From: Escherichia coli
GTDB taxonomy: Bacteria; Pseudomonadota; Gammaproteobacteria; Enterobacterales; Enterobacteriaceae
Direction: 5' to 3' (one strand)
Length of the DNA stretch: 64,000 nucleotides
Assembly: GCF_046105845.1 (NCBI RefSeq)
Contig: NZ_CP151004.1
How positions within the stretch are numbered: the first letter of the stretch is position 1; each line of letters opens with the position of its first letter. This document shows positions 1 through 3,000 of this stretch, in pieces. The position numbers are program-made.

Positions 1-3000
1 AAAGAAAATGCGGTTTCTGAAGTTCATAAATCAGCGAATAAAGGTGAGATTGAGCAATTAGTTGAATGCTCTAAGAGAAATGAAAAGACGCTTCTTGATA
101 ATATAAGTAAAAATACTGCTATCTATAATATTTACAATAACCAACGAGCAACAAACATTACTACATCTTTATCTGAACCACCTGCACAAGGTAAAAGTAA
201 TGATGTAGATAAATTAAAACAAACGCAGTTTATCAATGCTAGTCAATTTGATATTAATGAGCTTCAGCAGAGTTCTGCTTTTTTAGCGTCAAAATATCAC
301 ACCATAGATATTCAAGAAAAAACAGATGCGTTTGTGAAGAAGTTCAAGGGGATATTATTTGATAAAAATGGAAGGTCTTCAGAGCTTCTGTTTAATTTTT
401 ATGAGTGTTGCTATAAGTTTTTACCAAGAGCGCAGCCTCAAGATAAAATTGAAAGCTATAATTCAGCACTGCAAGCTTTTTCCATCTTTCGTTCATCTAC
501 TTTGAATAATAATGATGTAGGGTTTAATTTCAAATTATTCCCAGAAGTCAAGCTGTCTGGAGAACATCTTGAAACGGTATTCAAATACAAAAATGGCGAT
601 GATGTCCGGGAGATAGCCAAAATTAACATTACTCTCCAAAAAGAAGAGGGTGGTTTATATAATTTACGTGGATTGGATTTTAAGGGATGCTTCTTTTCTG
701 GACAGAACTTCAGTAACTATGATATTCAATATGTGAACTGGGGAACGTCATTGTTTGATCTTGATACTCCGTGTATTTTTAATGCGCCTGCTTACAACAA
801 GAGTAATGAAAAATCATTAGAACGCGTCAGCGAAAACGGTTTAAGTGGAGTCTTGTCTGATCGTAATAATAAAATAAAACTCATCACGGGCGTGGCACCA
901 TTCGATGATATTTTATTTATGGATGATGACTTTGATGATAGTTCTTCTGAGGATGATCCCGTTGAAAATAGTCCTGTTGTGACTAGTCCCCTTGTATCAA
1001 GTTCTAAAAGCAGTTTTCAATGATAAATAAATGGCAATTTTTACAAAGAGATAATAACGTAGATTGAAACAATATGTATTATTGATTGATTAAACGGGAT
1101 TATTTTTTACACTACAACCATTTTGCTGCCACTACCAAAGAAAAAGGGGCTACGCTTTCACGTAACCCCTTGATTTATTTGGTGGGCTGGCGGTGTCTGA
1201 ATTGGTGCTGTAATGGGTTGAAATATTTCATCTAATGTCTGGTTCAACTTTCCTTAGCTGCCTGAAAGTTTTTTTGATATTACCCATCAATAATAGGGTT
1301 ACGGTGTACCATGCCTGACTGATGAACTGCGTGCTCAGAGTTACCACTTCAGCGCATAACCGTGGCAGCAGACCCGGACAGAGCAAACGGCTCAGGACAT
1401 TATCGGTAGGGGACGTACTGGTAGTATGGAAACTGAACCGACTGGGGCGCAGTATGCGACATCTTGCCGTGCTGTTGGAGGAGCTGTGAGAACGTGGTAT
1501 TAACTTTCGTGCTCTGACTCTACCAATATTTGCCCAATAATGGGGGGACGAAAGCTGTAAAAGTAAAACAATCTGCAATCTCAATGTTATTGTGTGATTT
1601 TTATGTGAGCAGAAGATATTCATCAGAAACGATTATGTAAATCATTTTATTTTTCCGACGGCTTTAATGTCGAAAGAAAAGAATACGCCGTATTTCCTGA
1701 ATAGATTGACTTTTTTATCCAATCATCCTTCAGCACAATGTCTTAAAAAAATGCCTCATTCTTATGCGGAATATCATCATTTCATCATGATGTCTTTGAT
1801 GAGCGGTGAACACAATACACTTGCGCTGTCTCTTCAGGATGAATCCCCTGGTCTGGTGCCTGTGGGCTGATGTTGCAGCAAAGCTAAGGTCGCTTAAACG
1901 CTACTCAGTATTCACTTTTCAGAGGATGAAATTTATGAACAGGACCAGTCCCCATTATTGTCGCCGCTCAGTACTTTCCTTATTGATATCTGCCTTGATA
2001 TATGCTCCGCCTGGGATGGCGGCCTTTACTTCTAATGTTATTGGTGTGGTAAACGATGAGACTGTAGATGGTGTCCAAAAAGTAGATGAACGAGGTACAA
2101 CAAATAACACTCATATTATCAACCATGGCCGGCAGGAGGTCCATGGTGGGATATCTAATAGTAGTATTATTGAAACTGGTGGCGAGCAACTAGTATCAAT
2201 CCATGCCGATATTAACGGGCAAGCTAATAATACAACCATTAATGGAGGCAGACAGTCAATTGAGTACGGAGGAATTTCTACTGGCACGATAATCGAAAGT
2301 GGCAATCAATATGTTTATAAAGGCGGTACCAGCAATGGCACGATGATTAAGGCCGGAAGTTCACTCGTAGAGGGGGGGACTGCGAATGGAACAATCATTG
2401 ATGGTGGCAGCCAACGAGTAACAACTCAGGGGCATGTTGATAGTACAACGATAAATAAGTCCGGTTATCAGGACATCACGCAAGGAAGTCTGGCGACGAA
2501 CACAACCATAAATGGTGGTCGACAGTATGTTGAACAGAGCACAGTAGAAACAACCACCATTAAAAATGGCGGTGAGCAAAGAGTATATGAAAGCCATGCG
2601 CTGGACACGACGATTGAAGGTGGAACTCAGTCTCTGGATAGTAAGTCAACGGCAAAAAATACTCAGATCTATTCTGGTGGTACGCAAATTGTTGATTACA
2701 CTAGCACCTCGGATGTTATTGAAATTTATTCCGGTGGCGTGCTTGATGTTAGAGGTGGTATGGCAACAAATGTTACTCAGCACGATGGAGCCGCTTTGAA
2801 AGTAACGACTTACGATTTGACGGTGAGCGGTACGAATAGTGAAGGGGCATTCTCCATCCACAATAACGTGGCAGACAATGTGTTGCTGGAAAACGGTGGT
2901 CATTTAGACGTATATGGTTCGGCAACCAGGACGATAATTAAAGATAAAGGAACAATGTCAGTTTTAACGAATGCTAAAGCTGATGCGACCCGAATAGATA

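What the first reader, a model, noticed from the sequence alone, without database searches (positions are those of the whole stretch)
1290..1545. Decayed Pin-type invertase remnant flanking the autotransporter
Seen in sequence: frameshifted translation yields EEL*ERGINFRALT and neighbouring pieces resembling the serine-invertase core (ELRERGINFRSLTD in Pin/Gin/Hin). Established knowledge: Pin-family invertases switch tail-fibre genes in prophages such as e14, so this remnant together with the stf/tfa fragment at 7040-8187 suggests a former tail-fibre inversion module now split by the autotransporter and IS.
Basis: partly seen in the sequence, partly recalled or inferred. Interest (0 to 1): 0.3.

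Follow-up and report, generated by a model that had tools for sequence, protein, structure and literature searches.

The report
Dead pinH invertase fragment of E. coli
This is the already-annotated pinH pseudogene of E. coli: a dead 150-base internal piece of a Pin-type DNA invertase gene, lying among other mobile-element scraps upstream of the ypjA autotransporter and unrelated to the tail-fibre genes 5.5 kb away.

Summary
Window 1361-1519 encodes residues 39-91 of a Pin/Gin-type serine invertase (75% identical to e14 PinE, E 7e-22; Pfam Resolvase 8e-12), with an in-frame TGA at 1487-1489. It is the orthologue of K-12 pinH (b2648). It sits in the conserved order ileY-ypjCB-pinH'-ypjA, and about 3,000 of 5,426 complete E. 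coli genomes carry the same spacer.

The stated span is too wide:
- 1275-1368 is a relic of insertion sequence IS3 (left end plus InsF residues 58-83), not invertase.
- 1520-1545 shows no significant invertase similarity.
- Just upstream lie a Fels-2-type attP arm with a pseudo-ssrA end (1118-1193) and a CP4-57-type distal arm (about 1194-1255).

So pinH' sits in a pile of decayed elements that once integrated at ssrA.

The proposed link to stf/tfa (7040-8187) is not supported:
- Strains with intact ypjA directly followed by ssrA carry the same pinH' and no tail-fibre genes.
- stf/tfa belong to a separate lambdoid prophage remnant, joined to truncated ypjA by an IS3-family element.
- No gix/pix-like crossover site exists anywhere in the 64 kb.

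The fragment lacks the catalytic serine region and the DNA-binding domain, so it is inert. This is ordinary and already known.

The parts
334..1023 (+). 3' part of ypjCB (DUF5508); conserved left neighbour of the spacer that holds pinH'
   Evidence: Pfam DUF5508 E 2.7e-151; RefSeq annotation of orthologous loci
1118..1179 (-). 62-nt arm of a Fels-2-type (P2-like) phage attP, including a terminator-like hairpin (1171-1144 on the minus strand, same orientation as ssrA)
   Evidence: 94-97% identical to the att end of Fels-2 (annotated attP), RE2010, SopEPhi, SEN8, 500465-1 and Cartapus. Also matches the ssrA-proximal end of an intact P2-like prophage in E. coli GDAR2-2. Terminator scan.
1179..1193 (-). 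Pseudo-ssrA 3' end (TTGGTGG-GCTGGCGG, i.e. CGCCAGC-CCACCA): distal attachment repeat of a P4-integrase (CP4-57-type) island
   Evidence: Fuzzy match to the ssrA 3' end with one deleted base, identical to K-12 psaA. The same one-base-deleted repeat is reported for CP4-57 in PMC10107115, Table 1.
1194..1255 (.). Distal arm of a CP4-57-like island
   Evidence: Window 1179-1255 is 75% identical over 77 nt to K-12 psaA plus the adjoining end of CP4-57, E 2e-9
1275..1368 (+). IS3 relic: left terminal repeat (TGATATTACCCATCAATA, about 1275-1292) fused by an internal deletion to IS3 nt ~541-619 (InsF residues 58-83)
   Evidence: blastn against K-12 IS3A: 82% in the window (E 1e-18), 89% in K-12 (E 7e-28). 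tblastn with InsF: E 2e-5 in the window, 9e-11 in K-12. IS3 nt 1-15 match in K-12.
1369..1519 (+). pinH': internal fragment of a Pin/Gin-type serine invertase gene (PinE codons 41-91)
   Evidence: orthologous to K-12 pinH b2648
1487..1489 (+). In-frame TGA inside pinH'. It is lineage-specific: TGC in K-12, 2012C-4221 and ST69.
1520..1555 (.). 36 nt of unassigned origin between pinH' and the ypjA leader
   Evidence: No significant similarity to pin genes downstream of codon 91; no phage or plasmid hit
1556..1905 (+). ypjA upstream/leader block, paralogous to the ymgJ/autotransporter-remnant locus near minE
   Evidence: 86-87% identity to that second locus in thousands of genomes
1935..5780 (+). 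ypjA/ehaD autotransporter gene, truncated at its 3' end
   Evidence: RefSeq annotation of orthologues. Collinearity with 2012C-4221 ends at 5780, and 731 bp present in 2012C-4221 (nearly all the 3' end of ypjA) are missing.
5781..7038 (-). IS3-family insertion sequence (1258 bp) joining truncated ypjA to truncated stf; no target-site duplication (flanks CAG / TAT)
   Evidence: Pfam rve, HTH_21 and HTH_Tnp_1; ends read; homologous IS in strain EC01
7039..8187 (+). C-terminal part of a side tail-fibre gene (to 7603) and an intact tail-fibre assembly gene (7603-8187), from a separate lambdoid prophage remnant that ends at 10885
   Evidence: phrog_295 E 1.6e-90; Caudo_TAP E 3.7e-44; phrog_105 E 7.9e-99; EC01 annotation; boundaries
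11039..11401 (-). ssrA (tmRNA), the integration target that explains the pile of relics
   Evidence: Rfam tmRNA 292.8 bits, E 5e-120

Best explanation
Window 1369-1519 is the E. coli pinH pseudogene. It is a 150-bp internal fragment (codons ~41-91) of a Pin/Gin/Cin-type serine DNA invertase gene. It has no start codon, no catalytic-serine region, no C-terminal DNA-binding domain and no recombination sites, so it does nothing as a recombinase.

It is one layer in a stack of decayed mobile elements that accumulated at the 3' end of ssrA. From ypjCB rightwards the layers are:
- a Fels-2-type phage attP arm with its terminator (1118-1179);
- the one-base-deleted pseudo-ssrA repeat and distal arm of a CP4-57-like island (1179-1255);
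- an internally deleted IS3 stump (1275-1368), fused directly to the pin fragment;
- 36 unassigned bases;
- the ypjA autotransporter cassette.

Shown: the identity of each piece, the shared breakpoints across E. coli lineages, and the independence from the stf/tfa prophage remnant.

Inferred:
- A pin-bearing phage or island once lay here. Fels-2-type P2-like phages are the obvious pin-bearing integrators at ssrA.
- An IS3 inserted near or in the pin gene.
- Illegitimate deletions then removed the rest of IS3 together with the 5' part of pin, and separately the 3' part of pin.
- All of this happened once, before the sampled lineages diverged. The relic has drifted neutrally since.
For: - Invertase homology.
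- Orthology and synteny with K-12 pinH b2648.
- Six lineages are collinear over the whole ypjCB-ypjA spacer apart from single-base indels. 3,002 of 5,426 complete genomes carry at least 80% of the spacer.
- IS3 stump.
- Fels-2-type attP relic. Fels-2 and SopEPhi are listed as ssrA-associated prophages with P2-type integrases, and SopEPhi is documented to integrate into ssrA (PMC10107115, Table 1 and reference list).
- CP4-57-type repeat and arm.
- The same Fels-2-type phages that match the att relic carry invertase genes hit by pinH'.
- Neutral decay: pinH' and the IS3 stump are the most diverged segments between lineages (86-88% window vs K-12, against 92-97% for the flanks). Sixteen of 53 codons differ in amino acid between the window and K-12. 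Different lineages carry different stop codons.
- No crossover sites in the window, with a working positive control.
Against: - The order of relics does not fit a simple decay of one Fels-2-type prophage. In such prophages pin lies about 7 kb on the other side of the att arm. Here pinH' lies beyond the CP4-type repeat, so at least one more integration or rearrangement must be assumed.
- At the DNA level pinH' is nearer to e14 pinE (80-82%; 89% for an outgroup-guided, hence biased, ancestral reconstruction) than to the sampled Fels-2-type invertase genes (73-75%; 79-82% for the reconstruction).
- The scan of other species for the pinH core found only E. coli-like contaminant contigs, so the age of the relic outside E. 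coli is unknown.
- Lack of function is inferred from anatomy. Expression was not tested.
Confidence: 0.9

Rival explanations
1. One reading: pinH' and the stf/tfa fragment at 7040-8187 are the two halves of one prophage tail-fibre inversion module, later split by insertion of the autotransporter gene and the IS.
For: - Pin-type invertases do sit next to tail-fibre genes in e14, Rac, Qin and Fels-2.
- Both features are in the same 8 kb and on the same strand.
Against: - pinH' with identical breakpoints occurs with intact ypjA directly followed by ssrA and no tail-fibre genes, and in about 3,000 genomes.
- The stf/tfa prophage remnant lies downstream of ypjA, has its own right end at 10885, and reached ypjA only through an IS-associated deletion without target duplication.
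- There are no crossover sites and no second, inverted stf/tfa set.
- The recombinases that accompany lambdoid stf-tfa in K-12 (PinR/PinQ) are unrelated to pinH' at the DNA level, 41-42% identity.
Confidence: 0.03
2. Origin variant: pinH' is specifically the leftover of the Fels-2-type P2-like prophage whose attP arm survives 175 bp upstream. It was brought next to the arm by tandem lysogeny and/or IS3-linked deletion.
For: - The att arm is 94-97% identical to Fels-2-type attP.
- Those same phages carry pin-type invertases in the same orientation relative to the arm.
- An intact example sits at ssrA in E. coli GDAR2-2, in tandem with a P4-like element.
Against: - pinH' is on the wrong side of the CP4-type repeat for a single prophage.
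- It is closer to pinE than to the sampled Fels-2-type invertase genes.
- 150 bp at about 80% identity cannot resolve the donor.
Confidence: 0.35
3. The fragment, or the chimeric 55-codon ORF 1322-1489, has been co-opted, for example as a small protein, as part of the ypjA regulatory region, or as a residual Fis-binding enhancer.
For: - The position is conserved in thousands of genomes.
- K-12 has an open 79-codon frame.
Against: - It is the most diverged part of the spacer, changes are mostly non-synonymous, and different lineages carry different stops.
- The promoter-like count is no higher than in shuffled sequence.
- The ypjA leader block that is shared with a paralogous locus starts only at 1556.
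Confidence: 0.03

Closest known systems
pinH pseudogene of E. coli K-12 (b2648), between ypjB/ypjC and ypjA
   Same: - Same position and neighbours (ileY-ypjCB-pinH-ypjA).
- Same breakpoints; the spacer is collinear apart from single-base indels.
- 86% identity in the pin part, 92-97% in the flanks.
   Different: - The window's lineage has a TGA at 1487-1489 where K-12 has TGC, plus further substitutions.
- The K-12 annotation (equivalent to window 1358-1597) starts inside IS3-derived bases and runs 78 nt past the end of real invertase homology.
- In K-12 the downstream neighbour of ypjA is CP4-57. Here it is an IS plus a lambdoid prophage remnant.
PinE of cryptic prophage e14 (Pin/Gin/Cin/Hin serine DNA invertases)
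   Same: - 75% amino-acid and 81% nucleotide identity over PinE residues 39-91.
- Same Resolvase-domain core.
   Different: PinE is a complete 184-residue protein. It has the catalytic serine motif (VRVSTNDQ) and a C-terminal HTH. Two 26-bp crossover sites flank its invertible stf/tfa segment. The window fragment has none of these.
Fels-2 / SopEPhi-type P2-like phages that integrate at ssrA
   Same: - Their attP arm plus ssrA core is 94-97% identical to window 1118-1193.
- They carry a Pin-type invertase beside an invertible tail-fibre segment.
   Different: - Only 76 bp of the att region and possibly the 150-bp pin piece remain.
- The relative order of the two does not match a single prophage.
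- The pin identity is only 73-75%.
CP4-57 cryptic prophage (P4-type integrase island at ssrA)
   Same: - Same one-base-deleted distal repeat, CGCCAGC-CCACCA.
- A 75% similar distal arm.
   Different: - No integrase or other CP4-type genes remain.
- The island body now consists of the IS3 stump, pinH' and ypjA.
PinR / PinQ next to stfR-tfaR and stfQ-tfaQ in Rac and Qin
   Same: Serine recombinase genes lying just downstream of lambdoid stf-tfa.
   Different: - A different subfamily, 41-42% nucleotide identity to pinH' in the shared region.
- In the window, the slot downstream of tfa holds an unrelated ORF (8300-9253).

Membership tests
Pin/Gin/Cin/Hin serine DNA invertases (functional member) | Resolvase-type catalytic domain homology | tested here: met
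   PF00239 E 8.2e-12, but only profile positions 42-100 of 145. Gin E 2.7e-16. PinE residues 39-91 at 75% identity.
Pin/Gin/Cin/Hin serine DNA invertases (functional member) | N-terminal catalytic serine motif (VRVSTxDQ, Ser10) and a start codon | tested here: not met
   Homology begins at residue 39-41. The DNA upstream (1275-1368) is IS3-derived.
Pin/Gin/Cin/Hin serine DNA invertases (functional member) | E-helix and C-terminal helix-turn-helix DNA-binding domain | tested here: not met
   No tblastn or blastn match to PinE residues 92-184 in window 1-9000. No significant extension past 1519.
Pin/Gin/Cin/Hin serine DNA invertases (functional member) | Uninterrupted reading frame | tested here: not met
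   In-frame TGA at 1487-1489
Invertible tail-fibre switch (G, C or P segment type) | Two inverted 26-bp crossover sites (gix/cix/pix/hix consensus) | tested here: not met
   No match in the 64-kb window at up to 3 mismatches. The same pattern finds both e14 sites.
Invertible tail-fibre switch (G, C or P segment type) | Two opposed sets of tail-fibre C-terminus plus tfa adjacent to the invertase gene | tested here: not met
   There is only one stf'/tfa set, all on the + strand, 5.5 kb away in a separate prophage remnant.
Invertible tail-fibre switch (G, C or P segment type) | Fis-dependent recombinational enhancer in the 5' part of the invertase gene | not tested
   The first ~120 nt of the gene are absent. 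I did not examine whether any enhancer half-site survives.
E. coli pinH pseudogene locus | Synteny ileY-ypjC/ypjB-pinH-ypjA and shared breakpoints | tested here: met
IS3 (for window 1275-1368) | Terminal inverted repeat and transposase (InsF) coding sequence | tested here: met
   The left-end repeat and nt ~541-619 are present (82-89% identity, E 1e-18 / 7e-28). The rest of the element is absent, so it is a stump and not a functional IS.
Fels-2-type attP / ssrA attachment relic (for window 1118-1193) | Sequence identity to the annotated attP arm contiguous with the ssrA 3' end | tested here: met
   94.8% identity to Fels-2 positions 7-83, which overlap its annotated attP. 97.4% identity to the ssrA-proximal junction of the GDAR2-2 prophage.
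CP4-57-type (P4 integrase) island end (for window 1179-1255) | Distal repeat CGCCAGC-CCACCA followed by a CP4-like arm; integrase next to ssrA | tested here: inconclusive
   The repeat and a 75% similar arm are present. No integrase remains between here and ssrA.

The most novel reading that the evidence does not exclude
The ypjCB-ypjA spacer, annotated only as 'pinH' or 'recombinase family protein', may be a readable record of at least three successive invasions of ssrA: a Fels-2-type phage, then a CP4-type island, then IS3 and a pin-bearing element. All three would be fixed before the E. coli lineages sampled here diverged. If so, the ypjA/ehaD autotransporter is itself cargo of an ancient ssrA island rather than backbone. 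A more speculative addition: the 150-bp pin patch could still act as a homology target for recombination with active pin genes of resident prophages.
Probability: 0.3. Interest if true: 0.25.

Novelty: already known. Interest (0 to 1): 0.08.

Why it matters
It matters little for biology. The fragment is an inert pseudogene already annotated in K-12 (pinH, b2648) and flagged by RefSeq as a partial recombinase in thousands of genomes.

The useful outcomes are practical:
- The tail-fibre inversion story can be dropped.
- The K-12 pinH annotation mixes IS3-derived bases, 150 bp of true invertase sequence and 78 nt of unrelated read-through.
- The surrounding 450 bp contain three unannotated relics: a Fels-2-type attP arm, a CP4-type repeat and an IS3 stump. 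These mark ypjA as part of an old ssrA-associated island and could serve as lineage markers.

Tried and rejected
- I looked for an extension of invertase homology upstream. This was rejected because 1275-1368 is IS3.
- I looked for an extension downstream into 1520-1555. Local alignment against pinE and a P2-like pin scored no better than shuffles: 106-1843 of 2000 shuffles reached the observed score.
- I searched for gix/pix/hix-like crossover sites. None were found in the window, and the positive control worked.
- I searched for meaningful inverted repeats linking pinH' and stf/tfa. Only short, chance-level pairs turned up.
- I scanned representative genomes of all species for a 21-nt pinH-specific core, hoping to date the relic or find a fuller copy in other Escherichia species. 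Only two E. coli-like contaminant contigs came back.
- I tried to assign the donor phage from nucleotide identity. This was inconclusive: 73-84% to all Pin/Gin-type genes sampled.
- The literature search found nothing specific on pinH. Williams 2003, 'Traffic at the tmRNA gene', is not held in the library.
- I first took arm 1118-1179 for the ancestral chromosomal flank of ssrA. I rejected that after finding it inside free Fels-2-type phage genomes at their attP.
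Full report
**Observation**

The + strand of window 1292-1549 in frame 3 reads NRGSRPGQSKRLRTLSVGDVLVVWKLNRLGRSMRHLAVLLEEL*ERGINFRALTLPIFAQ*.

The similarity to serine invertases is well beyond chance:
- tblastn with e14 PinE aligns residues 39-91 to window 1361-1519 (40/53 identical, E 7e-22).
- blastn aligns pinE nt 124-272 to 1370-1518 without gaps (81%, E 1e-35).
- Pfam Resolvase scores 45.9 bits against a cut-off of 23.3 (E 8.2e-12), covering only profile positions 42-100 of 145.
- The best solved relatives are Gin invertase structures (E 2.7e-16).

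All intact invertase genes found in the phage and plasmid collections align only to window ~1369-1519.

**Boundaries**

The stated span (1290-1545) is too generous on both sides.

Upstream, 1275-1368 is not invertase. It matches insertion sequence IS3 of K-12: 82% here and 89% in the K-12 orthologue (E 1e-18 and 7e-28). It encodes InsF residues 58-83 ([22 protein letters not shown] in K-12). It is preceded by the IS3 left terminal repeat (TGATCTTACCCAGCAATA in K-12, TGATATTACCCATCAATA here), which is fused by an internal deletion to IS3 nt ~541.

Downstream, 1520-1555 gives no alignment to the rest of pinE or of a P2-like pin better than shuffled sequence.

From 1556 to 1905 the sequence is the ypjA leader. 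It has an 86-87% paralogue at the ymgJ/autotransporter-remnant locus near minE.

No N-terminal (catalytic serine) or C-terminal (HTH) invertase sequence is detectable anywhere in window 1-9000.

**Identity of the locus**

The region is the E. coli pinH locus.
- In K-12 the order is ileY, ypjC, ypjB, pinH (pseudogene b2648), ypjA.
- In other strains RefSeq annotates ypjCB, a partial 'recombinase family protein', a small hypothetical ORF, and ypjA/ehaD.
- 3,002 of 5,426 complete E. coli genomes carry at least 80% of the window's ypjCB-ypjA spacer.
- Six lineages aligned base by base are collinear across the whole spacer apart from single-base indels, with the same IS3/pin junction and the same 3' end of pin homology. 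This points to one old event.

The relic has since drifted:
- The pin and IS3 pieces are the most diverged segments between the window and K-12 (86-88%, against 92-97% in the flanks).
- Sixteen of 53 codons differ in amino acid between the window and K-12.
- The stop codons differ between lineages. The window's TGA is TGC in K-12, 2012C-4221 and ST69.

Mapped onto the window, the K-12 pinH annotation covers about 1358-1597. It starts in IS3-derived bases and runs 78 nt past the true homology to the first stop.

**Context: a graveyard of ssrA-targeted elements**

Window 1118-1193 was unexpected.
- It is 97% identical to the sequence that abuts the 3' end of ssrA in E. coli GDAR2-2. There it is the ogr-side end of an intact P2-like prophage that carries an intact Pin-type invertase beside an invertible tail-fibre segment.
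- It is 94-97% identical to the att end of free Fels-2-type phage genomes: Fels-2, where it overlaps the annotated attP, plus RE2010, SopEPhi, SEN8, 500465-1 and Cartapus.
- It contains a terminator-like hairpin in the ssrA orientation.

Fels-2 and SopEPhi are listed as ssrA-associated prophages with P2-type integrases, and the cited Pelludat et al. paper reports that SopEPhi integrates into ssrA (PMC10107115, Table 1 and reference list).

The last 15 nt (1179-1193, TTGGTGG-GCTGGCGG) are an ssrA 3' end with one base deleted. This is the same variant as K-12 psaA, the distal repeat of CP4-57 (CGCCAGC-CCACCA in PMC10107115, Table 1). Together with the next ~60 nt it is 75% identical to psaA plus the end of CP4-57 (E 2e-9).

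So the spacer reads, left to right:
- Fels-2-type attP arm;
- CP4-type distal repeat and arm;
- IS3 stump;
- pin fragment;
- 36 unassigned bases;
- ypjA cassette.

ssrA itself lies further right, at 11039-11401. pinH' therefore sits about 175 bp inside the distal end of an ancient ssrA-associated island that now contains little besides ypjA.

**The tail-fibre link**

Those genes are real: a tail-fibre C-terminus (phrog_295, E 1.6e-90) and a tail-fibre assembly protein (Caudo_TAP, E 3.7e-44). But they belong to a different, younger element.

- Against strain 2012C-4221, which has intact ypjA followed 160 bp later by ssrA, the window is collinear over 1-5780 and 10886-13000. Window 5781-10885 replaces 731 bp of 2012C-4221, nearly all of it the 3' end of ypjA.
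- That insert starts with a 1258-bp IS3-family element (5781-7038) without a target duplication (flanks CAG and TAT). This marks a deletion or rearrangement rather than a simple insertion.
- The insert continues with truncated stf, tfa, and several ORFs without family matches.
- Strain EC01 retains more of the same prophage: a portal fragment, tail tip, Lom, and the stf N-terminus. It has a related IS (92.9% identical) cutting ypjA at a different point.
- The empty-site strains carry the same pinH'.

Further points against the link:
- A 26-bp crossover-site consensus finds nothing in the 64 kb at up to 3 mismatches, but finds both e14 sites.
- Only one stf/tfa set is present, in one orientation.
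- The slot downstream of tfa, where Rac and Qin have pinR/pinQ, holds an unrelated ORF.
- PinR/PinQ are a different subfamily from pinH', 41-42% nucleotide identity.

The split inversion module is therefore not supported.

**Origin of the pin fragment**

Fels-2-type phages are the natural suspects, because their att relic is 175 bp away and they carry such invertases. Two things argue against a simple derivation:
- In these prophages pin lies about 7 kb on the other side of the att arm. Here it lies beyond the CP4-type repeat, so a further integration (tandem lysogeny, as seen in GDAR2-2) or an IS3-linked rearrangement must be assumed.
- pinH' is nearer to e14 pinE (80-82%; 89% for an outgroup-guided, hence biased, ancestral reconstruction) than to the sampled Fels-2-type genes (73-75%).

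With 150 bp the donor cannot be resolved. I put the Fels-2-type origin at about one in three.

The scan of one genome per species for a pinH-specific 21-mer returned only two E. coli-like contaminant contigs. So the age of the relic outside E. coli is unknown.

**Function and verdict**

The fragment lacks a start codon, the catalytic serine region, the E-helix and HTH domain, and recombination sites. It carries lineage-specific stops and evolves at least as fast as the surrounding non-coding DNA. It is an inert pseudogene.

The finding is a correct recognition of a known feature with an incorrect historical interpretation. The only additions are the finer anatomy of the spacer and the placing of ypjA inside an old ssrA island. 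Interest is low and the novelty is 'already known'.

Noticed in passing
window 5781-7038: An IS3-family insertion sequence (1258 bp, ends TGTAGTGG...) joins truncated ypjA to truncated stf without a target-site duplication (flanks CAG / TAT). Together with the prophage remnant to its right (5781-10885 in all) it replaces a 731-bp stretch of the empty-site strain, nearly all of it the 3' end of ypjA. Strain EC01 has a 92.9%-identical IS cutting ypjA at nt 441 instead, so the events were independent or successive.
   Followed up: partly
window 1118-1255: Unannotated attachment-site relics: a Fels-2-type attP arm with a terminator hairpin, then a one-base-deleted pseudo-ssrA end identical to K-12 psaA, then a CP4-57-like distal arm. 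They imply that ypjA lies inside an ancient ssrA-associated island.
   Followed up: yes
window 1556-1905: The ypjA upstream/leader block, which includes a 39-codon annotated ORF, has an 86-87% paralogue upstream of an autotransporter remnant at the ymgJ locus next to minE in most E. coli genomes.
   Followed up: partly
window 8300-9253 (minus strand): A 317-residue ORF with no Pfam or PHROG match, conserved in strain EC01. It lies just downstream of tfa, where Rac and Qin carry pinR/pinQ.
   Followed up: no
window 7946-8144 and 6848-6970: Rfam matches above gathering score: IS009 RNA (222.6 bits) inside the tfa gene, and isrC Hfq-binding sRNA (150.2 bits) inside the IS3-family element.
   Followed up: no
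window 10884-10915: A perfect 16+16-nt palindrome (ACGAAAAAACCCGCAT/ATGCGGGTTTTTTCGT) lies exactly at the right boundary of the prophage remnant, where collinearity with the empty-site strain resumes.
   Followed up: no
L007 (Terrisporobacter mayombei DSM 6539, 539-bp contig, coverage 0.74) and L008 (Planococcaceae MAG UBA3370): Both contigs are 90-93% identical to the window's ypjCB-pinH-ypjA spacer. They are almost certainly E. coli contamination in those assemblies.
   Followed up: partly
L012/L010 (E. coli GDAR2-2, NZ_CP074407.1 ~2,412,000-2,460,400): A tandem array at ssrA of a P4-like satellite (primase, psu, delta, SIR2 and ATPase defence genes, integrase) and an intact Fels-2-type P2-like prophage with an invertible tail-fibre segment and an intact Pin-type invertase. 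It is a living model of the kind of stack whose relics surround pinH'.
   Followed up: partly
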